A DNA stretch of 64,000 bases from a virus (taxonomy: Duplodnaviria; Heunggongvirae; Uroviricota; Caudoviricetes), in the IMG/VR virus record IMGVR_UViG_3300006217_000018, positions 25,725 through 89,724 of that record. One strand, given 5' to 3'. Under the pieces are notes generated by a model. It was given only the letters and a program-made list of their open reading frames with translations. It did no database searches and was not told the DNA's origin. Within the stretch, counting starts at the first letter, position 1. Every line of letters begins with the position of its first letter. The position numbers were made by a program, and so were the translations under genes. Of this stretch, positions 3,578 to 48,571 are shown piece after piece.

Positions 3578-3650
3578 AGGCTCCTAGTTCAACGGTCAGA
3601 CCAATCGCCTCATAAACGATAAGTTTTGGTTCGAATCCCAAAGGAACCTA
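3578..3650 (+). tRNA. tRNA-like gene, anticodon CAU (Met/fMet/Ile2-like), slightly degenerate
   Basis: hand-folded cloverleaf: acceptor AGGCTCC/GGAACCT with one C-A mismatch, U8, D-stem GTTC/GACC (one U-C mismatch), G18G19, anticodon loop CTCATAA, TTCGAAT T-loop (8-nt loop or a stem mismatch). Confidence 0.45.
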
Positions 3651-3904
3651 CGTAATTAAATCAGTGTTTCATTAGATGAAGCATTGGTTTAATTGCCATA
3701 AAAATAAGGGGAAAAGTGTATGCATATATAGGCTTATATGTCATATATGCAATTTTTGTACTCATTTTTACATTTTTTGTACATATCACCGTTTTTTAAA
3801 AAAATGTGTTTTGTGTTTTTGCGAAGTAATTCTCAAATAATCTTGAAGACTATATAATGACCACCATGAATTGGTGAAATATATTATGAAAGGAGTTTTA
3901 AATT

Positions 3905-5526: not shown

Positions 5527-6927
5527 ATGGCGAGACCAAGAAAACAGACTTATACATTAGATATGTATTTGGCAAAGACAAAAGATGGGGATATATGTAA
5601 TGATGCAGACACACAGAGGGATTTTGCGTGGAAGAATGAGCAGATCAATGAATTAATTTATACGGTTTTGACAGATGATTATATCCCGCCAATTATACTT
5701 GGAGAAGAAAATGATTCACAATTACATATTGTAGATGGCGGATGTAGGACAAAGGCATTAGATAAATTTAGATATGGAAACCATAAAATCACATCTACGA
5801 TAGATGATTCTAAGATAGTTTATAAGAAGAAAATAATAAGTGAAGACGGAAAAATCCATTGGGAGGATGGGACGTTTGATATAAAAAATAAAACATATGA
5901 TAAACTTCCAGATGAGTTAAAGAAAAAATTCGATGAATACCAAATAGAGACTGTCATTCATGAAAACTGCGACAGGAAAAGGTTGTCTAAATATGTAAAA
6001 ATATATAACAACCATATTTCAATGAATAGTAATCAGAAAGCATTTACATATTTATATAATTTTGCACCAAATGTTCGTAGAATAACAAATAGTAAATTTT
6101 TTATAGAAAAAAGCGATTTTAAGGAAATAGAAAAAATAAAAGGCGTTATTGAAAGAACAATTGCTGAAACTATCATGTGTTCTGATTATTTAGATGATTG
6201 GAAGAAAAATGCAAAATTAGCATGTAAATATTTGAATAACTGTGCAAAAGATGAGGATTTTGAAAAAGTTGAAAACAACTTACATAGATTGGAAGAAATT
6301 ATTTCTGAAGAAACAAAAATTATTTTTAATAGTAAAGATTCTTTTATATTTTTAACACTGTTTGACAGATTCACTCGTTATGGAATAGAAGATATAAAGT
6401 TTGAGCAGTTCCTGTTAGAGTTTAAAAATAATTTAAGGAATTGTAGAAAGAATAAAAATAATCTTTTATTTGATGAAATAGATAAAGATAAATCAACAAA
6501 GGATAAGACGGTTATTATTGCTAAATTAGACATGTTGGAAGGAATGATGAGAGAATTTTTAGGGATTGACACAGAACCTTGTGACGAAAAAGATGGAAAG
6601 GATACTATTTCTATTAATGAATTTTTAATAGAAAATACAGGGATTGATAAGAAAACAATCAGAGATGATATTGATTATTACAACGATGTCTTAGATGAAC
6701 TTGAAGATAGGACAATAAAATGTGATTCAAAATTATTGCAAGATGAAAACCGTCCATCATTATTAGCAATGGTTGTATACTCGCATCAAGCAGATAAAAA
6801 TTTGGATACATGGATGGAACAATATGCGAAAAGTAATAATACATATTTTAAAGACCAGAAGAAGAATTATCTTCATATGAAAGAAGATTTTATTAAATAT
6901 TGTAAGATACAAGAAAATGCTGCTTAA
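5527..6927 (+). CDS. DUF262 (ParB/Srx-fold, GmrSD N-terminal-like) domain protein, putative nuclease/NTPase
   Basis: QRDFAWKNEQINELIYTVL...IVDGGCRTKAL resembles the DUF262 signature QR.FVW....LIDSIL...IDGQQRLTAL. Confidence 0.55.
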   Translation: MARPRKQTYTLDMYLAKTKDGDICNDADTQRDFAWKNEQINELIYTVLTDDYIPPIILGEENDSQLHIVDGGCRTKALDKFRYGNHKITSTIDDSKIVYKKKIISEDGKIHWEDGTFDIKNKTYDKLPDELKKKFDEYQIETVIHENCDRKRLSKYVKIYNNHISMNSNQKAFTYLYNFAPNVRRITNSKFFIEKSDFKEIEKIKGVIERTIAETIMCSDYLDDWKKNAKLACKYLNNCAKDEDFEKVENNLHRLEEIISEETKIIFNSKDSFIFLTLFDRFTRYGIEDIKFEQFLLEFKNNLRNCRKNKNNLLFDEIDKDKSTKDKTVIIAKLDMLEGMMREFLGIDTEPCDEKDGKDTISINEFLIENTGIDKKTIRDDIDYYNDVLDELEDRTIKCDSKLLQDENRPSLLAMVVYSHQADKNLDTWMEQYAKSNNTYFKDQKKNYLHMKEDFIKYCKIQENAA

Positions 6928-18021: not shown

Positions 18022-19041
18022 ATGAGATTGGAGGATTTGGAAATAAAAATTTTAAGAAATATAAAAGTACCAACTGGAAACATTATGATTGTTGAGGGTG
18101 ACAAGGGAAAACTTGAATGTCTGTCAATCGGAGACTATGGGAAAGAAGCGAACTTAAAGGCTGATTTCATGGGCTTGACAAGGGAGATAGACCATGTAGA
18201 ACATCAGCAAATGTTACCGCTTTCCGAAAAGTGGGTAATCACAATCAGCACACAGTACGGTTGCTCCATGAACTGCAAATTCTGTGATGTGCCGAAAGTC
18301 GGAAAAGGCATAAACGCTACATACGATGATTTGAAAAGTCAGATTGTAACCGGCTTATCATTGCACCCAGAAATCACTCATACAAACCGCTTGAATGTGC
18401 ATTATGCGAGAATGGGAGAGCCTACATGGAATTGGGCGGTTTTGGAGTTTACAAAGAATATGAGAGAAGAATTAAAACCATATATCGGTGACAGCCTTAT
18501 TCATCCCGTTGTTTCCACCATGTTACCGAAGAACAACACAAAATTAGCTGATTATCTTGAAGTGTGGATGGAGATTAAGAACAAAGATTTTTCGGGGGAT
18601 GCCGGATTGCAATTCTCCATCAATTCCACTTCTGACAGCGAAAGAGAGGATATGTTTAGCGGAAATTCTCTGACATTGCAGGAAATTTCAAATATTGGAA
18701 GAAGCCTTGAAATGCCAAAGGGAAGAAAAATTACATTGAATTTTGCGGTTGCTGATTATGAGGTCAATGCAGAGAAGATGAGAGATTTATTCAATCCCGA
18801 AAAATTCCTTGTCAAGTTGACACCTATGCACAAAACACATACCGCCCTTAAAAACGGTATTGAAACAAGCGGAGATTATACAACCATGTATCCATACCGA
18901 CACATTGAAGAGGATTTGAAGAAAGCCGGATTTGATGTGCTTGTGTTTATCGCAAGCGAGTATGAGGACTTGGGGCGCATCACTTGTGGAAATGCAATAT
19001 TGAGCGGAGCATTGCCAGAATGCCCATATGAGGAAGATTAA
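18022..19041 (+). CDS. RlmN/Cfr-family radical-SAM RNA (adenine C2/C8) methyltransferase
   Basis: ISTQYGCSMNCKFCDVPKVG is a CxxxCxxC radical-SAM motif in the RlmN context (E. coli SSQVGCALECKFCST); C-terminal ITCGNA aligns with the conserved C-terminal Cys (AACGQL) of RlmN. Confidence 0.6.
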   Translation: MRLEDLEIKILRNIKVPTGNIMIVEGDKGKLECLSIGDYGKEANLKADFMGLTREIDHVEHQQMLPLSEKWVITISTQYGCSMNCKFCDVPKVGKGINATYDDLKSQIVTGLSLHPEITHTNRLNVHYARMGEPTWNWAVLEFTKNMREELKPYIGDSLIHPVVSTMLPKNNTKLADYLEVWMEIKNKDFSGDAGLQFSINSTSDSEREDMFSGNSLTLQEISNIGRSLEMPKGRKITLNFAVADYEVNAEKMRDLFNPEKFLVKLTPMHKTHTALKNGIETSGDYTTMYPYRHIEEDLKKAGFDVLVFIASEYEDLGRITCGNAILSGALPECPYEED

Positions 19042-19124
19042 AGAGAAAAACTGCTTTGTGATTGTGAATTTAAAAAAGATTATTTGAGAAAGAGATTAAT
19101 GAGTAAAATATGGAGGTATAGATT

Positions 19125-19679
19125 ATGAGTAGTATTTTGGTTGTGGTTGATATGCAAAATGATTTTATTGACGGCTCACTCGGAACAAAGGAAGCAAAAG
19201 ACATTGTTGGAAATGTAGTAGATAAAATAAAAGGGTTTGATGGGAAGATTTTTGCAACATTGGATACACATGATGACAATTATTTAGAAACTTTTGAAGG
19301 GAAGCATTTACCAGTTGCCCATTGTATTAGAATGACTAACGGATGGGTTTTGAATAAGGATGTCCGTGATGTATTAGTGGGAAAGGATTATAAAATTATT
19401 GAGAAAAGAACGTTTGGATCAACCCGCCTTATAAATGAAATAAGAAGGATCTTGGATAGAAAAGAGAGGTTAGAAATTGAAATTGTTGGATTATGTACGG
19501 ACATATGTGTTGTATCAAACGCTTTGCTGTTGAAGGCAAATTTCCCAGATATTGAAATTTCTGTAGATGTGGATTGTTGTGCAGGCACTTCTCCGGATGC
19601 GCATAAAGCAGCATTGCTGACTATGAAAATGTGTCAAATCCATGTAAATAAAAAAACGGTGTGGGAAGAATTAGGATGA
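19125..19679 (+). CDS. pncA: nicotinamidase / isochorismatase-family cysteine hydrolase (PncA-like)
   Basis: VVVDMQNDFIDG (Asp), Lys, and GLCTDICV catalytic Cys region parallel PncA IVDVQNDF...GIATDHCV. Confidence 0.7.
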   Translation: MSSILVVVDMQNDFIDGSLGTKEAKDIVGNVVDKIKGFDGKIFATLDTHDDNYLETFEGKHLPVAHCIRMTNGWVLNKDVRDVLVGKDYKIIEKRTFGSTRLINEIRRILDRKERLEIEIVGLCTDICVVSNALLLKANFPDIEISVDVDCCAGTSPDAHKAALLTMKMCQIHVNKKTVWEELG

Positions 19680-20203
19680 TTAAAATTGTGAATATTTTTA
19701 AGCATTTTAAGAAGGTCTGCGTCCATAAATATTGGGTATTTTACTATTGTTGGAAGATGGGAATCCCTTTACAAGGACTATTCCATGATATGTCAAAATT
19801 TTCTTCTGTAGAATTTTGGGAGGGTGTGAAATATTATCAAGGAAATTCCAGCCCTATTGATGCTTGTAAAAAAGAGAATGGCTGGTCAAAGGCGTGGATG
19901 CATCATAAGGGGAGGAATAAGCATCACTATGAGTACTGGCAGGATAATTTTGATGATGGCGGAATAGCCATTGAGATGCCATTGAAGTATAAAAAAGAAA
20001 TGTTATGCGATTTTCTTGGGGCAGGAAGGGCATATTACGGTAAGGATTTTACATATGAAAAAGAATATATGTGGTGGAAAAATAGGATGAGTAAACCTAT
20101 GGCTATGCATGTAAATGACAAAAATTTTATCAATACATGGATGTTAAAAATAATGAATGAAGACAACAACGCCTTTAATAGATTAAAGAAAGTTGGAGAA
20201 TGA
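19661..20203 (+). CDS. hypothetical protein inside the NAD cluster (His/Trp-rich)
   Basis: 180-aa ORF; no motif recognised. Confidence 0.35.
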   Translation: MGRIRMIKIVNIFKHFKKVCVHKYWVFYYCWKMGIPLQGLFHDMSKFSSVEFWEGVKYYQGNSSPIDACKKENGWSKAWMHHKGRNKHHYEYWQDNFDDGGIAIEMPLKYKKEMLCDFLGAGRAYYGKDFTYEKEYMWWKNRMSKPMAMHVNDKNFINTWMLKIMNEDNNAFNRLKKVGE

Positions 20204-20206
20204 AAT

Positions 20207-21412
20207 ATGGATAGGATTATTAATAGTTTATTGGAGAATGATTTATACAAATTTAGTATGGGGCAAGTCATTCTTCATCAATTTTCGGACTATAAAACTA
20301 CTTGGACGTTTAAATGCCGTAATAAAGATATATTTTTTACGCCTGAAATGGTTCAAGAGATTAAGCGCCAAATTAAATTGTATTGTAGCCTTAAGTTTAC
20401 TGAACAGGAGCTTCAATATTTAAAAAATATTCGTTGGATTAAGGGAAATTATGTGGATTTTTTGCGTTTATGGCAGCCACGTTTTGAGGATTTTGATATA
20501 ACAGTTAATTCAAAATGTGGTCTGGTGATTGAAACTAAAGGTACATGGCTTAACACAAGTATGTATGAGATCCCGGTTTTAGCAATAGTAAATGAAGTGT
20601 ATTTTAAAATGGCACATAATTATAGACATTTGATGGAAGTGTTTACAGAAAAATTGGAGGAGAAAGCGGAATGGCTAGGAATATATCAAGGAAGGTATTA
20701 TCTCTCTTCTTTTAGTGAATTTGGACTTAGGCGCAGGCTTTCTGCCGAAGCTCAAGAAATGGCAGTGCAAAAGTTATCTGGAATCAAATATTGCTGCTCA
20801 GTTTTTGTTGGGACTTCTAACGTTTATTTGGCAATGAAGTATAATTTAATGCCCACAGGAACCCAAGCGCATGAGTTTATTATGTGTGTAGGCCAAGGGA
20901 ACCATAAGCATAATCCTGCTTATTCGAATTGGTATGCGATGGAAGCTTGGGTAAGAGAATATGGGATCCTTAATGGGACGGCTCTTACAGATACCATTGG
21001 GACAGATTGTTTTTTGAAAGATTTTAACCTTACTTATGCCACTTTATTCAGTGGTGTGAGACATGATAGTGGCAGTCCGTATGAATGGGGAGAAAAAATA
21101 ATTAACCATTATAAAGATCTAGGGATAGACCCAAGGAGTAAGACATTGCTTTTTAGTGACAGTTTAAACTTTGAAAAAGCAGATAAAATCTATCATTATT
21201 TTAAAGAAAGGGCAAAGATTGCGTTTGGGATAGGGACTTATATTTCTAATGATACGGATGTGGAGCCGTTGAATATTGTCATGAAAGTTACAAAATGTAA
21301 TGGACAAGATGTGGCAAAGATTTCAGATGATGTTGGGAAAGGAATTTGCAAGAACCTCGATTATGTAAACTATTTGCAGAGATGTATTGACTGGAGATTG
21401 CAGTATGAATAA
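20207..21412 (+). CDS. pncB: nicotinate phosphoribosyltransferase (NAPRTase, PncB-like)
   Basis: 401 aa; N-terminal LLENDLYKFSMGQ matches PncB LDTDAYKLHMQQ; size and order in a PncA-PncB-NMNAT-NadE cluster. Confidence 0.7.
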   Translation: MDRIINSLLENDLYKFSMGQVILHQFSDYKTTWTFKCRNKDIFFTPEMVQEIKRQIKLYCSLKFTEQELQYLKNIRWIKGNYVDFLRLWQPRFEDFDITVNSKCGLVIETKGTWLNTSMYEIPVLAIVNEVYFKMAHNYRHLMEVFTEKLEEKAEWLGIYQGRYYLSSFSEFGLRRRLSAEAQEMAVQKLSGIKYCCSVFVGTSNVYLAMKYNLMPTGTQAHEFIMCVGQGNHKHNPAYSNWYAMEAWVREYGILNGTALTDTIGTDCFLKDFNLTYATLFSGVRHDSGSPYEWGEKIINHYKDLGIDPRSKTLLFSDSLNFEKADKIYHYFKERAKIAFGIGTYISNDTDVEPLNIVMKVTKCNGQDVAKISDDVGKGICKNLDYVNYLQRCIDWRLQYE

Positions 21413-22013
21413 GTCAGTATTGATTTTTGGTGCTTTTAATCCTGTGACAAATGCCCATATAAATATGGGCATTTGTTGCAAGATGGTATATCCATCAGCT
21501 AATATTGTTTTTGTTCCATCTAATGATAAATTTTTAAAAGACTGGAAAAAGTACGGAGATGGGATGGTATTGGATGGAGATAAGAGATTCCTGCTATTAC
21601 ATGAGGCAGTGAAAAAATTCGGTTTTCATGTATCGAACATTGAGATAAATGGGACAGTAGATGGCAAAACATATAATACAATCCAGTATTATAGAAAAAT
21701 GGATCCTATTATATGCATTGGGGCAGACAAACTTTGTGAAATCCACAGATGGTATAAAGCAGAAGAGGTAGTTAGGGATAATAGGTTTTTGGTGATTACT
21801 AGGAATAATGACAATGGGAAATTACATGAATCATTAATGCAATATAATGGTAATTTTAGATATATTGAAGGGGCATATCAAGAAGTATCATCGACACAGA
21901 TAAGGGAGGCGTATGTCAATAACCAGTTAGGCTCGGTTAAGGATTATGTCCCAGAATGTGTTTTTGAGTATCTGGAAAACACAGATAACGTTTATCGCAA
22001 AAGTGGATTTTGA
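21387..22013 (+). CDS. nicotinate/nicotinamide mononucleotide adenylyltransferase (NadD/NMNAT-like cytidylyltransferase fold)
   Basis: VLIFGAFNPVTNAHINMG is the (H/T)xGH nucleotidyltransferase motif near the N-terminus; context. Confidence 0.6.
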   Translation: MTGDCSMNKSVLIFGAFNPVTNAHINMGICCKMVYPSANIVFVPSNDKFLKDWKKYGDGMVLDGDKRFLLLHEAVKKFGFHVSNIEINGTVDGKTYNTIQYYRKMDPIICIGADKLCEIHRWYKAEEVVRDNRFLVITRNNDNGKLHESLMQYNGNFRYIEGAYQEVSSTQIREAYVNNQLGSVKDYVPECVFEYLENTDNVYRKSGF

Positions 22014-22209
22014 ATTGAGGTGATGTAATGGACAAAGAATTGTGCTTTATTATCGAATGAGAAGAATTGTATTTGGAATAAATATTATTTGATTACAATT
22101 GAATCCCAATATTTTTTATATGCATTGAATTAGACATTGTAACTTGTAAGCCTACAGGAAAAAAATGGATATTTCAATATTGCCAGAAGCAAATCTATAT
22201 GTTTGATGA

Positions 22210-22995
22210 TTGGAGGTTAGGACAATGATAGATGATTTTAACGCAGTAGAAGTAAAGAATAAATGCGTAAATTGGATTAAAGGATGCTTTGAGGATAATG
22301 GCAAGGGTTGTAAAGCAGTAATTGGAATTTCAGGTGGAAAAGATAGTTCTGTAGTAGCTGCCCTATGTGCAGAGGCACTTGGTAAAGATAGAGTGTTTGG
22401 CGTTCTTATGCCAAATGGACTTCAGACAGATATTGACTGTAGTTATTTATTATGCAGGTATCTTGGAATTAATTTTGCTTTAGTTCCGATTGGACATACT
22501 TTGAATACTTTAAAGTATGATATTCTCAATGCTTTTGATGATAATGATAGTTTGACAGAACAGGCAGAAATTAATCTTCCTGCTCGTATCCGTATGGCAA
22601 CTTTATATGCTGTAAGCCAAAGTATGGATGGTAGGGTGGCAAATACATGTAATTTGTCAGAGGATTGGATAGGATATAGTACGAGGTATGGGGATTCAGT
22701 TGGAGATTTTAGTCCGCTTTCTAACCTTACGGTTACAGAAATTAAACAGATTGGGAGAGTGTTGGGGTTACCAGACAAATTAATTGATAAAACACCATCT
22801 GATGGGCTTTGCGGAAAGACAGATGAAGAGAATTTTGGCTTTACTTATGAGGTGTTGGATAGATACATCCGTACAGGTGAAATTGAAGACCAAGAAGTAA
22901 AAAAGAAAATTGATACAATGCATAAGAAAAACTTATTCAAATTACAGCTTATGCCAAGTTTTAATCCTGGCATTGGAGTTGGTCTTGTTTCTTAA
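22210..22995 (+). CDS. nadE: NH3-dependent NAD+ synthetase (NadE)
   Basis: GISGGKDSSVVAALC PP-loop, SEDWIGYSTRYGD motif, about 260 aa, typical of single-domain NadE. Confidence 0.8.
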   Translation: MEVRTMIDDFNAVEVKNKCVNWIKGCFEDNGKGCKAVIGISGGKDSSVVAALCAEALGKDRVFGVLMPNGLQTDIDCSYLLCRYLGINFALVPIGHTLNTLKYDILNAFDDNDSLTEQAEINLPARIRMATLYAVSQSMDGRVANTCNLSEDWIGYSTRYGDSVGDFSPLSNLTVTEIKQIGRVLGLPDKLIDKTPSDGLCGKTDEENFGFTYEVLDRYIRTGEIEDQEVKKKIDTMHKKNLFKLQLMPSFNPGIGVGLVS

Positions 22996-23041: not shown

Positions 23042-23569
23042 ATGAATTATTATATTGCAGATACTCATTTTGGACATGAAAATATCCTTAAATTATCAAA
23101 AAGACCATTTGAATCAATAAAAGAAATGGATAAAGCAATTATCGAAAATTGGAATAATAGAGTAACAGACAGTGATAATATTTATATCTTAGGAGATTTT
23201 GCATATAAAAGTCAAGACCCTATTTCATACCTTAAAAAATTGAAAGGGAAGAAACATTTGATTATAGGGAACCATGACAATAAATTATTAAGCAATAAGA
23301 AGTATGAAAAGTATTTCTCATCAGTTACTTTTATAAAAACGGTCAATGACAGTGGAAAACGGATTATATGCTGTCATTATCCTATGGTGGAGTGGGATGG
23401 GTATTATAGAAATACATTGCATTTTTATGGACATATCCACAACAATTTTGAGAATAGCACTAATCAATATATATCAAAAATTAAGAATGCTTATAATGTG
23501 GGAGTGGATATAATTGGATTTATGCCAAAGACTCTAAATGAAATATTGGAAGGAGTTGACAAGCCATGA
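23042..23569 (+). CDS. calcineurin-like metallophosphoesterase
   Basis: DTHFGH, GDF and GNHD metal-binding motifs in canonical order. Confidence 0.7.
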   Translation: MNYYIADTHFGHENILKLSKRPFESIKEMDKAIIENWNNRVTDSDNIYILGDFAYKSQDPISYLKKLKGKKHLIIGNHDNKLLSNKKYEKYFSSVTFIKTVNDSGKRIICCHYPMVEWDGYYRNTLHFYGHIHNNFENSTNQYISKIKNAYNVGVDIIGFMPKTLNEILEGVDKP

Positions 23570-26447: not shown

Positions 26448-27320
26448 ATGGGAAGCGGAAGTTGGACGAGGGATAGCTTCAGAAGTTATTCATCAACAAA
26501 GAAAATGAGTGTAGGAACTGACGGGTCTATTTCAGGAGATTATCATGCACAGGATATGTTCAAACAGAGAATGATTGCGCCAGAATTAGACCCAAAGAAT
26601 AAAATGCGTGAGTGTTGCGATTCAACAGAACACCCGAACACCATTCCTGTTATTTTAGGACTTGATGTAACGGGTAGCATGGGTGGCGCGGCAGTTGAAG
26701 TCGCAAAGAAGCTGAATGTAGTTATGACAAGACTTTATGAAAAGGTTGCAGATGTGGAATTTATGATTATGGGCATTGGGGATTTAGCCTATGACAATGC
26801 GCCAATACAGGCTTCACAATTTGAATCAGATATAAGGATTGCAGAGCAGCTTGATAAGATTTACTTCGAGGGAGGCGGTGGAGGAAACTCTTTTGAATCA
26901 TATACGGTGGCATGGTATTTCGGCTTGCGGCATACAAAATTGGATTGCTGGAACCGTGGCAAGAAAGGAATTGTCATTACTATGGGTGATGAGCCACTTA
27001 ATCCTTATTTGCCAAAATCTCCACTTTCCAGAGTGACAGGTGATAATTTGCAGGGCGATGTAGAAACAAAGGATTTATACGAAGAAGCAAGCCGAAAATT
27101 TGATATTTACCACCTTGCAGTTAATGATTCGCAGACTTCATACAGATACCACGAATCTGGTATCAAAGAAACATTCGGAAAATATCTTGACGAAAATCAT
27201 TTGCGTACTGTAAGCATGGATAATATTGCAAACGCCATTGTGGACATCGTAACCAATACAGGAACGTGGGCGACAGAAACAAGAACAGAAGAAAATGCAG
27301 GAGGGATGATTTCGTGGTAA
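26448..27320 (+). CDS. von Willebrand factor A (vWA) domain protein, TerY-like
   Basis: MIDAS-type DVTGSMGG motif; start moved to the ATG at 26448 just after the upstream stop. Confidence 0.55.
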   Translation: MGSGSWTRDSFRSYSSTKKMSVGTDGSISGDYHAQDMFKQRMIAPELDPKNKMRECCDSTEHPNTIPVILGLDVTGSMGGAAVEVAKKLNVVMTRLYEKVADVEFMIMGIGDLAYDNAPIQASQFESDIRIAEQLDKIYFEGGGGGNSFESYTVAWYFGLRHTKLDCWNRGKKGIVITMGDEPLNPYLPKSPLSRVTGDNLQGDVETKDLYEEASRKFDIYHLAVNDSQTSYRYHESGIKETFGKYLDENHLRTVSMDNIANAIVDIVTNTGTWATETRTEENAGGMISW

Positions 27321-28498
27321 AGAAAAACATCAAAGTTGTAATCGGTGCAAACTTTGGTGATGAAGGAAAAGGCTTGGTGGCAGATTATTTTTGCCACCAA
27401 GCCGCCCTACGGGGTGAAAACTGTATTGTAGTGTGCCATAACGGTGGCGCACAAAGAGGGCATACGGTAGACACGGCGGAGGGGTCGCACCATGTGTTCC
27501 ACCATTTTGGTTCCGGGGTTTTTGCAGGAGCAGATACTTATTTATCAAAGGAGTTTATTGTAAATCCCATTTTATTCAGACAAGAATGGGAAGAATTGCA
27601 GAAATTAGGATATGAACCAACAGTATATTTGAATCCTTCGTGCAGAGTAACAACACCATTTGATATGATAATCAATCAGATTTTGGAAGAAAACCGTTCT
27701 AATGGGCGACATGGAAGCTGTGGCATGGGGATTTTTGAAACCATTAAACGTTATGAGGAAAACTATGGTTATCCGGCATGGGTTTTATTGGAGAATTGCG
27801 GCAAGCGGAACAAAGATGCAATCAAAGCCATAAAACATACATATCTGCCAAAACGCTTTAACGAATTGAAAATGCGGTCAAGTAGAGAATGGGAAGAAAT
27901 AATAAATGCTGATGGGTTGATTGAACAGTTTCTTTCAGATTTGGAATTTACGGCAAGTCATGTAACGGTTTGCGGAGATACAAACGCACTCGAAAAATAC
28001 CAGAATATTATTTTCGAGGGAGGGCAAGGACTTCTGTTAGACCAGAATAATAAAGAATATTTTCCTCATTTGACACCAAGCAACACCGGATTAAAGAATC
28101 CGGCGGAAATGATTTTAAGATTGTTTCCAGATTCAAATGTTGAAGTCTGTTATGTCACAAGACCATATCTAACAAGGCACGGGGCGGGCAGGATTGATAA
28201 TGAGTGCGGAAAAGAAGAAATCAATCCAGATATGGAAGATTTGACAAATGTACCGAACCAACATCAAGGGACAATGCGTTATGGGAAAATGAATGTTTCT
28301 GAATTATTAAACAGAATACAAAAAGATTTTTCTAATGGGAAAGGCTGGAAAATTTCTCTTTCCATAACACACAGCAATGAAGTTCCTGGAATATTTGAAT
28401 CGGTTGATAGCTTCGAGGTAAAGGACTTAAAACAGCAATTTGACGTTATTTATCACTCATTCGGAAAGGCAAGGAACGATATAAAGCAAGCTGATTAA
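27314..28498 (+). CDS. adenylosuccinate synthetase homologue (PurA family; candidate PurZ)
   Basis: VVIGANFGDEGKGLVADYF is the P-loop GxxxGDEGKGK; VVCHNGGAQRGHTV corresponds to PurA VVRYQGGHNAGHT; likely GTG start at 27314. Confidence 0.65.
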   Translation: MVKKNIKVVIGANFGDEGKGLVADYFCHQAALRGENCIVVCHNGGAQRGHTVDTAEGSHHVFHHFGSGVFAGADTYLSKEFIVNPILFRQEWEELQKLGYEPTVYLNPSCRVTTPFDMIINQILEENRSNGRHGSCGMGIFETIKRYEENYGYPAWVLLENCGKRNKDAIKAIKHTYLPKRFNELKMRSSREWEEIINADGLIEQFLSDLEFTASHVTVCGDTNALEKYQNIIFEGGQGLLLDQNNKEYFPHLTPSNTGLKNPAEMILRLFPDSNVEVCYVTRPYLTRHGAGRIDNECGKEEINPDMEDLTNVPNQHQGTMRYGKMNVSELLNRIQKDFSNGKGWKISLSITHSNEVPGIFESVDSFEVKDLKQQFDVIYHSFGKARNDIKQAD

Positions 28499-35741: not shown

Positions 35742-37565
35742 TTGGAAGAAAATAAGAAAATAAAATTAACAGTAAACGAATTATTTTCAGGAATAGGATG
35801 TCAAACAAGAGGATTTAGGGACTCAGGAGTATTTGACATTGAAGTAGTAAATACATCAGAAATAAGCAAAGAATCTGTGTTATCATATGCTGCTATCCAT
35901 TGTGGCTTGACGGATGGAATGGTTATTTCATATAAGGGGTATCCGTCCAAGGAAGAGATGGCTCAGCACTTAATGGATATAAATTTGGGCTATGATCCTG
36001 AGAAAGGCAAGAAGTCCGATTGGCTTAAATTAGTGAAGAGAAAGAAGAAGGATCTGGAGAAATATTGGTTGGCTTGTAAACTGACGCATAATTTAGGGGA
36101 TATAAGTAAAATTGAAGAATTGCCATATGCAGATTTATGGACATGTTCTTTTCCTTGCACGGATATCAGCGTTTGCGGAAAAATGAAAGGGTTAAATCCT
36201 GATAGTGGTACAAGAAGTAGCCTGCTATGGGAAAACATAAGATTGCTCAAGAAAGCAAAAGATAGTAATTCCCTTCCAAAATACATAATGTTTGAAAATG
36301 TCAAAAATCTTGTGAGTAAAAAATTTATCAATAATTTTAATGATTTGTTAGGAATATTAGATGGGTTGGGGTTTAATTCTTATTACTCGATAATCAACGG
36401 GAAAAATTGTGGAGTCCCGCAATCAAGAGAAAGGGTTTTTGTAATATCTATTAGGAAAGATATTGATAAAGGTAAATATGTATTTCCTAAACCATTCGAT
36501 ACTGGTATACGCCTAAAAGATATTTTAGAAAAAGAAGTTGATGAAAAATATTATTTACCAGACGAAAAAGTAAAAAAATTTCTAAAAACTATTGATTTAG
36601 AAAAAATTTTCAGGATTGATAATGAACTCCATCAAGTAGGGTATATCAATAATTATAACGGGGATGCAAATAGGGTGTATTCAGATAATATTAGCAGGAC
36701 GTTAAAATCCGAGGCCGGTGGAGGCGGTGCAAAAACTGGATGGTACTTAACAGAAAATAATATTTTGAAAGTTGGAGAGATTAATTCCTCGCAAGACGGA
36801 ATAGTCGTATCACCAGAAGGAATATCACCAACACATACGGCAGGACATGGTAATAATGCTAAAATCATATGTGGAATAGATAAAACAACCAACAACCCTA
36901 AGATAATTGAAAATGCAAATTGTATAACTGCAAGTGAAAATCGGGGATCAAGCAATAGGAAAAAAGAAGGAACGGCTGTTCTTGAAATTCCAGATATTAC
37001 GGTCTTAGTTTCAAATCAAGGGACTAAATCTGAGAAAGAAATAGATTTTGCATGTACATTACTTGCTAGAGATCATAAAGGATTTGGAAATCAACCAACA
37101 AATGCCGTGATTAACGGATTATATAAAACAATTAGAATCCGTAAATTAACTCCGAAAGAATGTTATAAACTCATGGGATTGACTTTCGAAGATTGTGATA
37201 AAGCTGCAGAAATAGGTATTGCGAATACACATCTATATAAACAAGCAGGGAATGGAATAATCACAAATTGCTGTGCGTTATTAGCGGAGCATTTATATAA
37301 GGCTCAATATGATGATACATATATATGTACCGATGAAAAACTCCAAGAAAGTTTTATTCAACAACATGTAGATGAGTCTATTTGTTGTGAACATAAATCA
37401 GCTATATTAGATGGTGTTGGTGCTGCTATGCGTGGAAGGTATAATTCAAATGAAGAAATAAAACAAAAAATAGAAATACGGAATGATGGATTGTCAAATG
37501 CCATCACCACAGCTCCAAAAGATAGTTTAGTTGTAGAAAATTTTCAGAAACTGCCAATGAATTGA
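35742..37565 (+). CDS. DNA (cytosine-5)-methyltransferase with an unusually long variable/TRD region (607 aa)
   Basis: motif I LFSGIGCQ, IV SFPCTDIS, VI MFENVKNL, VIII QSRERVFVIS, IX RVYSDNISRTLKSEAGGGG, X RKLTPKECYKLMGL...AGNGI in canonical order. Confidence 0.8.
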   Translation: MEENKKIKLTVNELFSGIGCQTRGFRDSGVFDIEVVNTSEISKESVLSYAAIHCGLTDGMVISYKGYPSKEEMAQHLMDINLGYDPEKGKKSDWLKLVKRKKKDLEKYWLACKLTHNLGDISKIEELPYADLWTCSFPCTDISVCGKMKGLNPDSGTRSSLLWENIRLLKKAKDSNSLPKYIMFENVKNLVSKKFINNFNDLLGILDGLGFNSYYSIINGKNCGVPQSRERVFVISIRKDIDKGKYVFPKPFDTGIRLKDILEKEVDEKYYLPDEKVKKFLKTIDLEKIFRIDNELHQVGYINNYNGDANRVYSDNISRTLKSEAGGGGAKTGWYLTENNILKVGEINSSQDGIVVSPEGISPTHTAGHGNNAKIICGIDKTTNNPKIIENANCITASENRGSSNRKKEGTAVLEIPDITVLVSNQGTKSEKEIDFACTLLARDHKGFGNQPTNAVINGLYKTIRIRKLTPKECYKLMGLTFEDCDKAAEIGIANTHLYKQAGNGIITNCCALLAEHLYKAQYDDTYICTDEKLQESFIQQHVDESICCEHKSAILDGVGAAMRGRYNSNEEIKQKIEIRNDGLSNAITTAPKDSLVVENFQKLPMN

Positions 37566-40446: not shown

Positions 40447-41472
40447 ATGAACATTGGGCAAATAAAAGAAAAAATAAAATCAGATGAGTATGCTTTTTTG
40501 AAGAAAGATAAAAATTTAGGTAGCAATATTATTCTTTTAACAGTAGGAGGAAGCCATGCTTATGGGATGGAAAAGGAAGGGTCTGATTTGGATGTAAGAG
40601 GGATTGCGTTAAATTCTAAGAAAGATATCCTATTGGGGACTGATTTTGGGCAGGTTGTAGATACAGAAACAGATACCGTGATGTATTCATTTAATAAAAT
40701 GATTGAGCTACTTACAAAATGCAACCCTAATGTAATCGAATGTTTGGGTTCCCTTCCGGAACATTATCTATATTTATCTGATATTGGGAAAGAACTTCTA
40801 GGTAACAAAAGAATGTTTCTTTCCAAAATCTGCATCCATACATTCGGCGGGTATGCCCAGTCCCAGCTCCGTAGGTTGGGCAATAAATCGGCCAGGTTAG
40901 TAGGGCAGGCACAAAATGAAGCATATATCCTTAAAAGCATAAAAAATGCGAAGTATGATTTTAAGAATAGGTATTACCCGCAAAGCAACAGCAGGGTGAA
41001 ACTTTATATTGATAAATCAGAACATGAAGGGTACGATAGTGAAATTTTCATTGATGCAAGGTTAAGGCATTATCCGTTGAGGGACTGGGCAGGAATGTGT
41101 AACGAGATGAAGGCCATTGTAAGCAGTTATAATAAAATTGGGAAGCGAAATGAAAAAGCGATATCACATGATAAATTAGGGAAACATTCAGCACATTTGA
41201 TCCGGCTTTACATGATGTGCATTGACATTCTCGAAAAAGAAGAAATCATCACATATAGAGCAGACGAGCATGATTTACTTATGAGAATTAGGAATGGTGA
41301 ATTTCTTGATGAGAATAGGCAGCCTACATCTGCGTTTTATGATTTACTGGATGGGTATGAGAAGAAGTTTGAATATGCAAAAAACAACACATCTCTTCCA
41401 GATTTTCCAGACTATAAGAAAATCAATGAGTTCAAAATGTATGTAAATGAGCGAATTGTGAAAGGAGTTTAA
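40447..41472 (+). CDS. pol-beta-superfamily nucleotidyltransferase
   Basis: LLTVGGSHAYGMEKEGSDLDVRGI is the G[GS]-x9-13-DxD minimal NTase motif; 341 aa with a helical C-terminal domain. Confidence 0.55.
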   Translation: MNIGQIKEKIKSDEYAFLKKDKNLGSNIILLTVGGSHAYGMEKEGSDLDVRGIALNSKKDILLGTDFGQVVDTETDTVMYSFNKMIELLTKCNPNVIECLGSLPEHYLYLSDIGKELLGNKRMFLSKICIHTFGGYAQSQLRRLGNKSARLVGQAQNEAYILKSIKNAKYDFKNRYYPQSNSRVKLYIDKSEHEGYDSEIFIDARLRHYPLRDWAGMCNEMKAIVSSYNKIGKRNEKAISHDKLGKHSAHLIRLYMMCIDILEKEEIITYRADEHDLLMRIRNGEFLDENRQPTSAFYDLLDGYEKKFEYAKNNTSLPDFPDYKKINEFKMYVNERIVKGV

Positions 41473-44444: not shown

Positions 44445-45461
44445 TTGGTATTGCCAATCGAAAGGTTGGGAAAATATGTGGATATTGAAACCTTATCTGA
44501 CGGTGATAAAGTTTCTGTCCTGAATGGACATGAGATTTGCAGGAAGTATATTCCAAAGACAAATAGAAGAAGTAATGCCACACACGATAACAAGAAAAAG
44601 AAGAGAAAAGATGAAAAGGAAATAATTTCGTATCCATTCTTTAAAGAACATAGCGACACAGAGCAACTTGCATATAATAAAAATGCATTCAAGCCAGGAG
44701 ATACTTGCTATATAACGCTGAAGATGCATGGAACATCGAATCGCACGGCGAATGCTATTGAGGTGAAAAAAAGAAAAAGAAATCTTTTCCTAAAAAAAGT
44801 ATTCAAACTGAATGATAAAGAAATTCGTAAGTTTAAGATTGTTAGCGGAACTAGAAGGAAAGTTTTAAAAGATTATAATGGTGGATTTTATGGGAGTAAT
44901 AAATTCAGGGAAAAATATCAGAATTTCTTCAAAGACAAGCTTCCCAAGGGAGTAGAAATATTCTATGAAATTGTTGGGTATACAGAAGGCGACCAAACAA
45001 TAATGGGAAGATGTTCCAATAAAAAAGTAAAAGATAAGGAATTTGAGAAGAAGTATGGGAAAGAAACGGTATTTTCATATGGATGTAAGCCAGGAGAAAA
45101 CGATATTTATGTGTATCGTATGACTATGACAGGAGAAGATGGGTTTACTGTAGAAATTCCATGGGAACAAGTTCAAATTGAATGTGAGAAATTAGGAGTT
45201 AAATGCGTTCCCACATTTGAAAAGTTTGTCTTTACTACATGGGAAGATTTAATGGAACGTGTAGAAAAATATTATGATGGGGAAGACCCGATTGGAAAGA
45301 CACATGTAAGGGAAGGTGTTGTAGTGAGGATTGACAATAGGGAAACATTTAAGGCATATAAACATAAAAATTTTAGCTTTAAAGTCCTTGAAGGAATTAT
45401 TAAAGACAGTGCAGATGCCCCAGATATGGAAGAAGCGGAGGAGTTGATTATAAATGAATGA
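44445..45461 (+). CDS. ATP-dependent RNA ligase, Rnl2-like (KxHGxN nucleotidyltransferase)
   Basis: motif I LKMHGTSN (T4 Rnl2 KIHGTN), III IFYEIVGY, IV EGVVVRID, V FKAYKHKNFSFK in order. Confidence 0.6.
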   Translation: MVLPIERLGKYVDIETLSDGDKVSVLNGHEICRKYIPKTNRRSNATHDNKKKKRKDEKEIISYPFFKEHSDTEQLAYNKNAFKPGDTCYITLKMHGTSNRTANAIEVKKRKRNLFLKKVFKLNDKEIRKFKIVSGTRRKVLKDYNGGFYGSNKFREKYQNFFKDKLPKGVEIFYEIVGYTEGDQTIMGRCSNKKVKDKEFEKKYGKETVFSYGCKPGENDIYVYRMTMTGEDGFTVEIPWEQVQIECEKLGVKCVPTFEKFVFTTWEDLMERVEKYYDGEDPIGKTHVREGVVVRIDNRETFKAYKHKNFSFKVLEGIIKDSADAPDMEEAEELIINE

Positions 45462-46368
45462 CGTAAAACCAACTTTTATCATGATGGTAGGTTTGCCAGG
45501 TTCTGGTAAATCTACCTATGCAGAAAAAATAGCAGAAGAATCGGATGCAATAATCTGTAGTTCGGATATGATTAGGAAAGAATTATATGGGGATGTAAAT
45601 TCTCAGGATAAAAATGTGGTTGTATTCTTAACATTACATAGGAGGATTAAGGAACATTTAAGTAATGGGCGTAATGTAATATATGATGCCACAAATATTA
45701 GTTCAAAAAGGCGTAGGGCATTCCTCAAAGAATTAGAGAGGATTGTATGCATTAAAAAATGTGTAATTATGGCCACTCCATTTGAAGAATGTCTTGAAAA
45801 GAATAAACAAAGAGACAGGGTGATTCCAGAAGATGTTATTTGTAAGATGTATAAAAACTGGAACACACCATATTGGTTTGAAGGGTGGAATGAGATTAAA
45901 ATTGTATTTAACAAAAGACAAGAATGGAGGAATATTGAAGATTGGGTTGAAAAATATTCAAATTATGACCAGAATAATCCACATCATTCAATGGCTCTTG
46001 GGGAACATTGTAAAGCAGTTGAGAGCAAAATCGGAAGCGATAAGGAACTAAAATATGCTGCCCTTTTACATGACTGTGGAAAACCATTTACAAAATCATA
46101 TTTGAATTGTAAAGGAGAAGAAACAGAAATAGCGCATTATTATCAACATCATTGTGTGGGAGCGTATGAAAGCCTGTTCTATTCTTATCCAGAAAATATT
46201 GATAGGCTTTATGTTTCAACTCTGGTTAATTTGCATATGTTCCCATATTTTTGGGAAAATGATAAGAAATACGGTGTAAAGACAATGAGTAAATGGATGC
46301 ATATTTGGGGAGTTAAGCTGTGGTCGGATGTAATGCTGATGCATTATGCTGATAAAATGTCGAATTAA
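45454..46368 (+). CDS. polynucleotide kinase (P-loop) fused to HD-domain phosphohydrolase; RNA end-healing enzyme
   Basis: MMVGLPGSGKST Walker A as in T4 Pnk (GCPGSGKST); C-terminal H...LLHDCGK HD motif. Confidence 0.6.
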   Translation: MNDVKPTFIMMVGLPGSGKSTYAEKIAEESDAIICSSDMIRKELYGDVNSQDKNVVVFLTLHRRIKEHLSNGRNVIYDATNISSKRRRAFLKELERIVCIKKCVIMATPFEECLEKNKQRDRVIPEDVICKMYKNWNTPYWFEGWNEIKIVFNKRQEWRNIEDWVEKYSNYDQNNPHHSMALGEHCKAVESKIGSDKELKYAALLHDCGKPFTKSYLNCKGEETEIAHYYQHHCVGAYESLFYSYPENIDRLYVSTLVNLHMFPYFWENDKKYGVKTMSKWMHIWGVKLWSDVMLMHYADKMSN

Positions 46369-48510: not shown

Positions 48511-48571
48511 CTTATATTTATTATACACTGCGTAGGCTGATATCTGCGCAGTGTATGGAAAGGAAAGAATT

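What the first reader, a model, noticed from the sequence alone, without database searches (positions are those of the whole stretch)
18022..19041. RlmN/Cfr-family radical-SAM RNA methyltransferase encoded by the phage
The CxxxCxxC motif sits in the RlmN-specific context GCSMNCKFC, and there is a conserved C-terminal Cys (ITCGNA) as needed for the ping-pong methyl transfer. RlmN methylates C2 of A2503 in 23S rRNA and A37 in tRNA, and Cfr methylates C8, which causes multi-antibiotic resistance. A phage copy could modify host ribosomes or tRNAs during infection. It is next to the NAD cluster and the Thg1-like gene.
Basis: partly seen in the sequence, partly recalled or inferred. Interest (0 to 1): 0.6.

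Follow-up and report, generated by a model that had tools for sequence, protein, structure and literature searches.

The report
Phage RlmN-like radical SAM enzyme, atypical
The gene is real and encodes a radical-SAM enzyme with the fold of the RNA methylases RlmN and Cfr. It belongs to a large, uncharacterised, mostly phage-borne sister family that lacks one of the two catalytic cysteines and the N-terminal domain, so it should not be called a ribosome methylase or an antibiotic-resistance gene.

Summary
The cluster motif is C81-x3-C85-x2-C88 and the late cysteine is C322 in 'ITCGNA'.

It is a true but distant homologue of RlmN/Cfr:
- Family profile against PDB: RlmN E=3e-20, Cfr E=9e-20.
- hhalign against E. 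coli RlmN: 98.9% probability.
- C322 aligns with the methyl-carrying Cys355 of RlmN.

It fails membership:
- It scores 33 bits against a cutoff of 290 for RlmN, and 26 against 530 for Cfr.
- The resolving Cys118 is Thr74 here, and is never Cys in 220 relatives.
- The N-terminal accessory domain of RlmN has no counterpart.
- None of seven Cfr-signature residues matches.

It belongs to PHROG 24834 (function unknown), with more than 7,000 relatives. The gene moves alone between unrelated phages, into accessory islands rich in NAD-salvage and tRNA-repair genes. Cellular relatives sit in operons with, or are fused to, an isochorismatase-like hydrolase, a flavoprotein, a QueT-type transporter domain and MTA/SAH nucleosidase.

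RlmN-like chemistry is likely. The substrate is unknown, and A2503 methylation or PhLOPSA resistance is unsupported.

The parts
18022..19041 (+). ORF of 339 aa: radical-SAM enzyme of the RlmN/Cfr-like fold, member of PHROG 24834
18115..18117 (+). Glu32, invariant in the family. It aligns with the conserved 'VETV' Glu of Cfr (E91). Its equivalence to RlmN E105 is by eye.
18130..18219 (+). Residues 37-66 (GDYGKEANLKADFMGL...). An insertion between the N-terminal beta-hairpin and the core that RlmN lacks. It is conserved among the phage-type members I examined by eye.
18241..18243 (+). Thr74, at the position of the resolving Cys118 of RlmN (Cys105 of Cfr). Never Cys in 220 relatives.
18262..18288 (+). 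C81-x3-C85-x2-C88 [4Fe-4S]/SAM motif, followed by the family-specific Asp89 (Asp in 210 of 221 relatives)
18409..18423 (+). R130-M-G-E-P134, equivalent to RlmN 'GMGEP' (SAM-binding 'GGE' motif). His127 and Arg130 stand where RlmN has Val174 and Gly177, close to the base pocket.
18979..18996 (+). 'ITCGNA' loop. Cys322 aligns with the methyl-carrying Cys355 of RlmN (Cys338 of Cfr). The motif is kept in 162 of 171 full-length relatives.
17988..18014 (+). 8-bp hairpin (GCGGACTT / AAGTCCGC, 11-nt loop) in the 53-nt gap upstream of the start, with no T-run. Role unknown. No terminator-like site was found on the + strand in 16800-20400, so this gene and its neighbours are probably co-transcribed.

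Best explanation
The ORF encodes a stand-alone, horizontally mobile phage accessory enzyme. It belongs to a large uncharacterised sister family of the class-A radical-SAM methylases RlmN and Cfr.

Shown by sequence and model:
- It has the RlmN/Cfr core fold.
- It has the CxxxCxxC site for a [4Fe-4S] cluster that binds and cleaves SAM.
- It has the RlmN-type SAM motifs.
- It keeps the conserved Glu of the 'VETV' strand.
- It keeps the C-terminal 'CG(Q/N)' loop, whose Cys aligns with the methyl-carrying Cys355.

Inferred mechanism. One SAM methylates Cys322. A second SAM is cleaved to a 5'-deoxyadenosyl radical, which abstracts H from the S-methyl group. The resulting thiomethylene radical adds to an electron-poor sp2 carbon of an adenine-like heterocycle.

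The resolving cysteine is missing in the whole family. The covalent enzyme-substrate adduct therefore cannot be released by the intramolecular disulfide used by RlmN and Cfr. Release must use something else: a base such as the family-specific Asp89, His127 or Glu32 together with an external thiol or reductant. Alternatively the outcome of the reaction differs.

The substrate is not established. 23S rRNA A2503 is unlikely. My single most likely guess, about one in three, is an RNA adenine, for example in tRNA, modified as part of the phage's counter-defence or host-takeover gene set. An adenine- or purine-type small molecule is nearly as likely.
For: Homology and fold:
- Family profile against PDB: RlmN 3e-20, Cfr 9e-20, over the whole core including the CGQ loop.
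- hhalign against E. coli RlmN: probability 98.9%, E=3.4e-17, query 62-327 to RlmN 108-365, with C322 on C355 and T74 on C118.
- AF2 model: pLDDT 93.4, pTM 0.92.
- Foldseek: top hits RlmN 2.5e-11 and Cfr 4.6e-6.

Family conservation:
- Invariant C81, C85, C88, E32, G132, P134; near-invariant C322-G323, D89, R130, K70, K265.
- 0 of 220 have Cys at -7 from the cluster; 162 of 171 keep the C-terminal CG[QN]; 210 of 221 have Asp after the third Cys.

Distinct family: PHROG 24834, function unknown, E=3e-135. It is below all curated RlmN and Cfr cut-offs.

Mobility and stand-alone nature:
- 84 IMG/VR loci show no conserved partner.
- The 84-85% identical copies in 108-394 kb contigs share nothing else with the 64-kb window.
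- 13 relatives of this phage keep the NAD block but have no such gene within 10 kb.

Counter-defence setting. Neighbours in different lineages are:
- Thg1-like genes (window; L035).
- Tpt1/KptA (L206, L209).
- NAD-salvage operons (window, L021/L030/L033, L050, L013, L037).
- Metallophosphoesterases.
The window also carries RlaP, RNA ligase and a PNK-like gene.

The mechanism of the reference enzymes is taken from PMC4689488.
Against: - No biochemical data exist for any member.
- Without the resolving Cys, the RlmN mechanism as known would end in a dead-end crosslink, as in the C118A RlmN-tRNA crosslink of PDB 5hr7. Methyl transfer is therefore an extrapolation.
- RlmN residues 1-107 have no aligned counterpart. 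I recall the first ~85 of them as an accessory RNA-binding domain.
- The basic stretch R344-K345-T346-R347 next to the base pocket of RlmN aligns with F309-I310-A311...Y314 and is followed by acidic residues.
- Cellular relatives point to small-molecule metabolism: fusions to a QueT-type ECF S-component and to MTA/SAH nucleosidase, fusions to or operons with an isochorismatase-like cysteine hydrolase, and an FNR/TrxR-like flavoprotein.
- Gene neighbourhood in phage accessory islands is weak evidence for a shared pathway.
Confidence: 0.6

Rival explanations
1. One reading: a bona fide RlmN/Cfr orthologue that methylates C2 or C8 of A2503 in 23S rRNA (and A37 of tRNA). It would reprogramme host ribosomes and possibly give PhLOPSA resistance.
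For: - RlmN and Cfr are the best hits in NCBIfam, PDB and the fold searches.
- The methyl-carrying Cys is conserved.
- JGI's pipeline names close relatives '23S rRNA (adenine2503-C2)-methyltransferase'.
Against: - Scores are 33 vs 290 (RlmN) and 26.5 vs 530 (Cfr).
- The Cys118/105 equivalent is absent in all 220 relatives.
- RlmN residues 1-107 have no aligned counterpart.
- 0 of 7 Cfr-signature residues match.
- Identity to RlmN is about 18-19%.
- A separate phage clade that does keep both cysteines exists, in Stenotrophomonas phage ANB28 inside a tRNA gene cluster. Loss of the Cys here is therefore a family trait and not an alignment artefact.
Confidence: 0.08
2. The family acts on a free small molecule rather than on a nucleic acid. 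Candidates are a purine or pyridine base, a nucleoside or nucleotide, or a cofactor such as an adenine nucleotide, an NAD-related compound or a 7-deazapurine. The phage copy would alter a host metabolite pool, possibly linked to NAD salvage.
For: - Relatives 36-40% identical are fused N-terminally to a QueT-family ECF S-component. This passes Pfam's cut-off in P0152 and P0163. They are fused C-terminally to a bona fide MTA/SAH nucleosidase (224 vs 169 bits).
- Relatives 31-39% identical in many phyla lie in a tight three-gene operon: isochorismatase-like hydrolase, then FNR/TrxR-like flavoprotein, then the radical-SAM gene. This holds in 29 of about 35 loci. In others the protein is fused to the hydrolase or the flavoprotein.
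- The phage-type gene sits inside NAD-salvage operons in independent arrangements. One is NAPRT, nicotinamidase-like, rSAM, NadE, DUF5662, NrtR-Nudix in L021/L030/L033. Another is isochorismatase, NAPRT, Nudix, rSAM, NadE in L050. It also sits next to the NAD block in the window.
- In 28 gut-phage loci a DUF4406 (nucleoside deoxyribosyltransferase-like) gene follows directly.
- The RNA-contacting basic residues and the N-terminal domain are lost.
Against: - The window's isochorismatase looks like a metal-site nicotinamidase and is not the subfamily found in the cellular operon.
- The NAD block exists without the rSAM gene in 13 related phages.
- Most rSAM copies have no NAD genes nearby.
- MTA/SAH nucleosidase would help any radical-SAM enzyme by removing 5'-dA and SAH.
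- No preQ1, cobalamin or other riboswitch lies upstream of the fused or operonic genes.
- No class-A enzyme is known to use a small molecule (my own knowledge).
Confidence: 0.3
3. It modifies phage or host DNA, for example C-methylation of adenine, as an anti-restriction hypermodification.
For: - In temperate Bacteroides-type phages the gene lies in the replication/recombination module, among ParB-like, resolvase and nuclease genes.
- DNA methylase genes recur nearby in prophage loci.
- The window phage invests in DNA modification: a PurZ-like gene, a C5 methylase and a PAPS-reductase-like gene.
Against: - I know of no C2- or C8-methyladenine in DNA (my own knowledge).
- No DNA-binding domain is present.
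- The location argument is weak.
- The cellular relatives' partners do not suggest DNA.
Confidence: 0.07
4. The enzyme is not a methylase. The conserved C-terminal Cys serves as a hydrogen-atom donor or redox residue, as the active-site Cys does in spore photoproduct lyase. The reaction would be a radical lyase, isomerase or repair reaction.
For: - The family-wide absence of the resolving Cys argues against the canonical ping-pong methyl transfer.
- Spore photoproduct lyase and queuine lyase appear among the weaker fold matches.
Against: - The match includes the very loop and Glu that serve methyl transfer.
- Fusion to SAH/MTA nucleosidase fits production of SAH.
Confidence: 0.15

Closest known systems
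RlmN (dual-specificity 23S rRNA m2A2503 / tRNA m2A37 radical-SAM methyltransferase; COG0820, TIGR00048; PDB 3rfa, 5hr7, 6fz6)
   Same: - 'Q-x-G-C-x3-C-x-F-C' cluster context and 'MGEP' motif.
- The 'S-x-(N/H)-(S/A)' and 'P-x-N-P' strands align.
- The conserved Glu of the beta-hairpin.
- The C-terminal 'CGQ/N' loop with the methyl-carrying Cys.

   Different: - About 18% identity; 33 bits against a 290-bit cut-off.
- No Cys118 equivalent (Thr74).
- No counterpart of RlmN residues 1-107.
- A 30-residue insert at residues 37-66.
- Asp after the third cluster Cys; His127 and Arg130 near the base pocket.
- The basic R344-R347 stretch is not conserved.
- Encoded as a mobile phage cargo gene.

Cfr (23S rRNA m8A2503 methyltransferase, PhLOPSA resistance; TIGR04432, NF000424; PDB 9p0p)
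   Different: - 24-26 bits against 530-550 bit cut-offs.
- Cys105 equivalent absent.
- None of Y97, W101, S103, S151, S153, Q329, F330 is matched. The aligned residues are L67, K70, V72, N125, H127, A311 and Y314.

RlmN-like genes of large tRNA-rich phages, for example Stenotrophomonas phage ANB28 (annotated 'ribosomal RNA large subunit methyltransferase N')
   Same: Phage-borne, short N-terminus, same fold family, C-terminal CGQ.
   Different: Only about 25% identical. This clade keeps a Cys at the Cys118 position ('VICCSTQSGC') and lies inside a tRNA gene cluster. It looks like a truer RlmN analogue than the window's gene.
Queuine salvage set of Clostridioides difficile: ECF S-component QrtT, nucleosidase QueK and radical-SAM queuine lyase QueL (Yuan et al. 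2019, as summarised in PMC11130926 and 10.1101/2023.12.05.570228)
   Same: Relatives of the window protein combine, in one polypeptide, a QueT-type S-component, a radical-SAM domain and a nucleosidase domain. This is the same three kinds of parts.
   Different: - The nucleosidase domain scores as ordinary MTA/SAH nucleosidase.
- No preQ1 riboswitch was found.
- The phage protein has none of the fused domains.

Membership tests
Radical SAM superfamily | CxxxCxxC cluster motif, partial TIM-barrel core and a SAM-binding glycine-rich motif | tested here: met
   - C81/C85/C88 are invariant and 'RMGEP' is present.
- The Pfam PF04055 score of 21.8 is below its 29.5 cut-off.
RlmN (TIGR00048 / COG0820) | Score at or above the curated equivalog cut-off | tested here: not met
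   33 bits against 290, and only residues 64-182 aligned. Other RlmN models score 13-19 bits against 420-630.
RlmN / Cfr (class A radical-SAM methylases) | Overall fold of the core plus the C-terminal loop | tested here: met
   [not shown]
RlmN / Cfr (class A radical-SAM methylases) | Methyl-carrying cysteine in the C-terminal loop (RlmN Cys355, Cfr Cys338) | tested here: met
   C322 aligns with C355 and C338 in hmmsearch and hhalign. The motif is present in 162 of 171 full-length relatives.
RlmN / Cfr (class A radical-SAM methylases) | Second cysteine that resolves the covalent adduct by disulfide formation (RlmN Cys118, Cfr Cys105), seven residues before the first cluster Cys | tested here: not met
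   The position is Thr74. Across 220 relatives it is T 172, I 16, N 9, V 7, M 5, A 4, S 3, L 2, E 1, F 1, and never Cys. No other cysteine is conserved across the family. Its role is taken from PMC4689488.
RlmN / Cfr (class A radical-SAM methylases) | N-terminal alpha-helical accessory domain (my recollection: about residues 1-85 of E. coli RlmN) | tested here: not met
   - hhalign covers RlmN 108-365 only.
- The query has 61 residues before that point. These are predicted as beta-strands plus an insert, with no helical domain.

RlmN / Cfr (class A radical-SAM methylases) | Conserved Glu of the 'VETV' strand (RlmN E105, Cfr E91) | tested here: met
   E32 is invariant in the 43-sequence alignment. 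It aligns with Cfr E91 in the profile alignment.
Cfr (TIGR04432 / NF000424) | Curated cut-off and the Cfr-signature residues Y97, W101, S103, S151, S153, Q329, F330 | tested here: not met
   Scores are 24.5-26.5 bits against 530-550. The aligned residues are L67, K70, V72, N125, H127, A311 and Y314, so 0 of 7 match. The loop alignments are uncertain at this distance.
RlmN / Cfr | Methylation of C2 or C8 of A2503 (23S rRNA) or of A37 (tRNA) | not testable with these tools
   This needs enzyme assays or RNA mass spectrometry.
PHROG 24834 (phage proteins of unknown function) | Full-length match to the family profile | tested here: met
   E=3.1e-135, 451 bits, residues 9-338 against profile positions 2-333 of 336.
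QueL (queuine lyase) | Sequence or fold membership of the QueL radical-SAM subgroup | tested here: not met
   [not shown]
Known anti-phage defence proteins (PADLOC-DB) | Match to any defence-system model | tested here: not met
   No hit for the window protein or for the rSAM-isochorismatase fusion P0207. The other two fusions tested gave only weak hits outside the rSAM domain (P0232 E=0.0028; P0163 nucleosidase region).

The most novel reading that the evidence does not exclude
PHROG 24834 and its cellular relatives would be a new functional branch of the class-A radical-SAM methylases. The branch has dispensed with the resolving cysteine and the RNA-binding domain. It would act on a free adenine-, purine- or pyridine-type metabolite, such as an adenine nucleotide, an NAD-related compound or a 7-deazapurine, or on tRNA by a new resolution chemistry. 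Phages would spread it as a stand-alone counter-defence or host-takeover gene alongside NAD-reconstitution and tRNA-repair genes.
Probability: 0.3. Interest if true: 0.8.

Novelty: new variant of a known kind. Interest (0 to 1): 0.55.

Why it matters
Annotation risk. Automated pipelines already name members of this family '23S rRNA (adenine2503-C2)-methyltransferase'. A reader could go further and flag a phage-borne Cfr-like resistance gene. The evidence here says that label is unsafe.

Enzymology. The family has thousands of members in gut and environmental phages. All keep the methyl-carrying Cys and all lack its partner. Either the textbook two-cysteine mechanism has a second solution, or the scaffold has been turned to different chemistry or a different substrate. 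Both are directly testable with one recombinant protein.

Phage biology. The gene travels alone into accessory islands that hold NAD-salvage and tRNA-repair genes. That makes it a candidate counter-defence function.

Tried and rejected
1. Rosetta-stone link between the rSAM gene and the isochorismatase gene downstream. Relatives are indeed fused to an isochorismatase domain. However, the window's isochorismatase aligns better with metal-site nicotinamidases and is a different subfamily from the fused or operonic one. The link is kept only as a weak hint.

2. The rSAM as an obligatory part of the NAD-salvage module. This is rejected. Thirteen related phages keep PncA-DUF5662-NAPRT-NadD-NadE with no such gene within 10 kb. 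The closest rSAM copies (84-85% identical) sit in unrelated neighbourhoods.

3. The family as a non-orthologous queuine lyase. No preQ1 or other riboswitch lies upstream of the QueT-fused genes, and no tgt or que genes are nearby. QueL is only a generic fold match. The nucleosidase domain is ordinary MTA/SAH nucleosidase.

4. A cobamide lower-ligand (2-methyladenine) link. This was my own idea. No cobalamin riboswitch was found in 11 loci of cellular relatives. It remains untested speculation.

5. A resolving Cys supplied in trans by the TrxR-like partner. That partner has no conserved cysteine.

6. Protein charge as an argument against RNA binding. The query has pI 5.3 and net charge -13. E. 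coli RlmN is near neutral, and the two-cysteine phage homologue is -10. Charge is therefore not discriminating.

7. Other searches that found nothing:
- No near-identical DNA among the deposited phage records.
- No PADLOC hit for the window protein.
- No PDB relatives for the 692-aa neighbour or for the QueT-like domain.
- No paper describing this family.
- The afdb50 fold library was unavailable.
Full report
OBSERVATION. The ORF 18022-19041 (+) is present as described: ATG start, 339 aa. It contains 'STQYGCSMNCKFCDV', giving C81, C85 and C88, and 'GRITCGNA', giving C322 (nt coordinates). It is a real, widely conserved gene:
- It matches PHROG 24834 (function unknown) at E=3e-135 over its full length.
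- It has 7,353 homologues with E<=1e-3 among the 8,000 candidates scored, the nearest 95% identical.
- It has 625 cluster-50 representatives.

The exact protein occurs on JGI contigs of up to 243 kb. No + strand terminator-like site was found in 16800-20400, so the gene is probably co-transcribed with its neighbours in a long + strand array.

RELATION TO RlmN/Cfr: WHAT IS THE SAME. As a single sequence the protein hits only weakly:
- Pfam Radical_SAM 21.8 bits, below the 29.5 cut-off.
- NCBIfam RlmN 33 bits against 290, and Cfr 26.5 against 530.
- PDB RlmN 6fz6 at E=6.5e-5, over the N-terminal half only.

A profile of 43 diverse family members (alignment A1) matches across the whole core, through the C-terminal 'CGQ' loop. 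It gives RlmN 6fz6 at 3e-20, Cfr 9p0p at 9e-20 and E. coli RlmN at about 1e-18. hhalign of A1 against E. coli RlmN gives 98.9% probability, with query 62-327 aligned to RlmN 108-365. C322 lies on Cys355.

The AlphaFold2 model is confident, with pLDDT 93.4 and pTM 0.92. Its best PDB matches are RlmN and Cfr:
- Foldseek: 2.5e-11 and 4.6e-6.

The invariant E32 aligns with the 'VETV' Glu of Cfr. Homology to the class-A methylases, and conservation of the methyl-carrier loop, are therefore well supported.

RELATION TO RlmN/Cfr: WHAT IS DIFFERENT. In RlmN and Cfr the covalent enzyme-RNA adduct is resolved by disulfide formation with a second cysteine, Cys118 or Cys105 (PMC4689488). That residue lies seven positions before the first cluster Cys. 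Here it is Thr74. Among 220 relatives carrying the motif it is never Cys: T 172, I 16, N 9, V 7, M 5, A 4, S 3, L 2, E 1, F 1. The C-terminal CG[QN] is kept in 162 of 171 full-length members. No other cysteine is conserved across the family.

Further differences:
- RlmN residues 1-107 lie outside the hhalign match. I recall the first ~85 of them as a helical accessory domain, and it has no counterpart here. The query has only a beta-hairpin plus a 30-residue insert (residues 37-66) before the core.
- Family-specific residues appear at or near the active site. These are Asp89 after the third cluster Cys (210 of 221), His127 and Arg130 before 'MGEP', and K70 and K265.
- The basic R344-K345-T346-R347 stretch, which flanks the substrate base in RlmN, aligns with F309-I310-A311 and Y314.
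- None of the seven residues reported as Cfr signatures is matched.

A different phage clade does keep both cysteines. Stenotrophomonas phage ANB28 has one such gene inside a tRNA gene cluster. The loss seen here is therefore a trait of this family.

WHAT THE RELATIVES SAY. I distinguish three tiers.

Tier 1, phage-type proteins, 46-95% identical. These occur in at least 589 IMG/VR hits and in many MAG or prophage contigs. Clustering the neighbours in 84 viral loci finds no conserved partner. The commonest neighbour is a DUF4406 (nucleoside-deoxyribosyltransferase-like) gene. It belongs to one lineage of gut phages related to Bacteroides phage Versailles. The closest copies are 84-85% identical and lie on contigs of 108-394 kb. 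There the order is Tpt1/KptA, then an M50 peptidase, then a 210-aa ORF, then the rSAM gene, then a metallophosphoesterase. In tblastn of the 19 genes around that copy, only the rSAM gene matches the 64-kb window. Conversely, 13 IMG/VR phages carry the window's NAD block (PncA-like, DUF5662, NAPRT, NadD, NadE) at 47-78% identity for four of the genes and about 30% for NadD, with no rSAM gene within 10 kb. The gene is therefore a self-sufficient, horizontally mobile cargo gene.

Even so, it lands repeatedly in the same kind of island:
- NAD-salvage operons in independent arrangements: L021/L030/L033, L050, L013, L037 and the window.
- Next to Thg1-like genes: L035 and the window.
- Next to Tpt1.
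- Next to metallophosphoesterases.

Tier 2, relatives 36-40% identical. These are fused to a QueT-family ECF S-component and to a bona fide MTA/SAH nucleosidase. They stand alone in their genomes, with no riboswitch upstream.

Tier 3, relatives 31-39% identical. These occur in Elusimicrobia, Myxococcota, Aminicenantes, Thermotogae, Planctomycetota and Thermoplasmata, among others. They lie in a compact operon: isochorismatase-like cysteine hydrolase, then an FNR/TrxR-like flavoprotein with no conserved Cys, then the rSAM gene. In some the parts are fused.

These partners suit small-molecule metabolism better than RNA modification. They are, however, attached to distant relatives and not to the phage protein. 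The window's own isochorismatase is a nicotinamidase-like subfamily, different from the operonic one.

MECHANISM. Shown: a radical-SAM site, an RlmN-type SAM-binding core and the methyl-carrier loop.

Inferred from established RlmN/Cfr chemistry: Cys322 is methylated by one SAM. A 5'-deoxyadenosyl radical from a second SAM makes the S-CH2 radical. This adds to an electron-poor sp2 carbon of an adenine-like ring.

The adduct cannot then be released by the canonical intramolecular disulfide. The plausible alternatives are base catalysis by Asp89, His127 or Glu32 with an external thiol or reductant, a different product, or no methyl transfer at all.

Substrate, by inference only, with rough probabilities:
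- RNA, most plausibly tRNA, given the counter-defence and tRNA-repair setting: about 0.35.
- A purine- or pyridine-type small molecule: about 0.3.
- DNA: under 0.1.
- 23S A2503 as in RlmN or Cfr: under 0.1.

COMPARISON AND NOVELTY. The protein works like a class-A radical-SAM methylase in architecture. It is not a member of the RlmN or Cfr families by curated thresholds, nor by two of their defining features. Public names are generic ('radical SAM protein', 'Fe-S oxidoreductase') or automated ('23S rRNA (adenine2503-C2)-methyltransferase'). PHROGs lists the function as unknown. I found no paper on the family. I class it as a new variant of a known kind.

It is of moderate interest. It gives no support for a phage-borne resistance gene. 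It is a large, testable enzyme family that breaks the two-cysteine rule.

LIMITS.
- All functional statements beyond fold and motifs are inference.
- Loop alignments at about 18% identity are uncertain.
- Neighbourhood statistics come from capped samples of 80 loci per scan, many from related phages.
- I could not inspect model coordinates. The distances from C322 to SAM and the pocket shape were therefore not checked.

Noticed in passing
window 19125-22995 (and 23042-23569): A complete deamidating NAD salvage block: nicotinamidase-like isochorismatase, DUF5662, NAPRTase, NadD-like, NadE, then a metallophosphoesterase. The same five-gene order recurs in 13 IMG/VR phage contigs (47-78% identity for four genes, about 30% for NadD). 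DUF5662 is an integral, uncharacterised member: PncA is adjacent in 16 of 34 DUF5662 loci. The route is none of the NARP1, NARP2 or NARP3 pathways described in the papers read.
   Followed up: partly
window 27266-28498: An adenylosuccinate-synthetase-like gene matches phrog_1211, annotated '2-aminooxy adenylosuccinate synthetase' (PurZ-type), and Pfam Adenylsucc_synt. The phage may make 2-aminoadenine (Z) DNA. I did not look for MazZ, DatZ or DpoZ.
   Followed up: no
window 13974-14825; 40447-41472; 44445-45461; 45454-46368: An RNA/tRNA repair set spread over the window: a Thg1-like 3'-5' polymerase, an RlaP nucleotidyltransferase, an RNA ligase, and an AAA_33 kinase with an HD domain (PNK-like).
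   Followed up: partly
L037 2440-4725 (Candidatus Woesebacteria MAG contig LBWB01000022.1): The homologous rSAM gene is 'fractured'. The N-part carries an N-intein-like extension starting 'CSPAG'. A free-standing HNH endonuclease ORF follows in another frame. The C-part opens with a C-intein ending '...ALLHN|CDVP'. The split lies exactly before the third cluster cysteine. This looks like a split intein with a homing endonuclease.
   Followed up: partly
L048-L083 (e.g. L067 4385-6849; L056 5042-7479): A conserved three-gene operon in many bacterial and archaeal phyla: isochorismatase-like cysteine hydrolase, then an FNR/TrxR-like flavoprotein (no CxxC), then an RlmN-like rSAM. Some parts are fused. 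I know of no described function.
   Followed up: partly
P0152, P0163 (L168 8001-10445; L170 3423-5885): Proteins of about 815 aa fuse a QueT-family membrane S-component, the RlmN-like rSAM domain and MTA/SAH nucleosidase. They stand alone in their genomes with no riboswitch upstream.
   Followed up: partly
window 14857-16935: A 692-aa protein of phrog_1735 (function unknown; Cys-rich N-terminus; no Pfam, PDB or PADLOC hit). It recurs within a few kb of the rSAM gene in L093 and L096, and near the NAD block in L177 and L180.
   Followed up: partly
window 47584-49309: An SPFH/Band-7 gene followed by a vWA-TerF-like gene. Distant RlmN-like genes of other phages also sit near SPFH or Ter genes: Kehishuvirus 'tikkala' (SPFH) and Yersinia phage P778 (TerC, TerD).
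   Followed up: no
window 50634-51710; 54081-55127; 35742-37565; 5527-6927: Further accessory genes: a second radical-SAM/SPASM protein (phrog_7293, function unknown), a PAPS-reductase-like protein, a 607-aa C5 cytosine DNA methylase, and a GmrSD_N-domain protein.
   Followed up: no
window 17988-18014 and 18022-18045: An 8-bp GC-rich hairpin with no T-run lies just upstream of the ORF. A GGAGGA lies inside codons 3-5, while homologues start at the equivalent of residue 8, which is ATA here. The annotated ATG may not be the true start.
   Followed up: no
window 1-64000: The long ORFs lie on the + strand, and the few - strand ORFs of 110 aa or more overlap them. GC skew is uniformly positive (+0.18 to +0.39) and GC content is 30-41%. 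The only RNA gene found is tRNA-Met at 3578-3651. There is no near-identical DNA among the 50,697 deposited phage records.
   Followed up: no
L035 4651-6906 (Dysosmobacter segnis BX15 contig, apparently a prophage): A Thg1-like gene (51% identical to the window's) lies directly upstream of an rSAM homologue, with a DNA methylase gene nearby. This is a second, independent Thg1-rSAM adjacency.
   Followed up: partly
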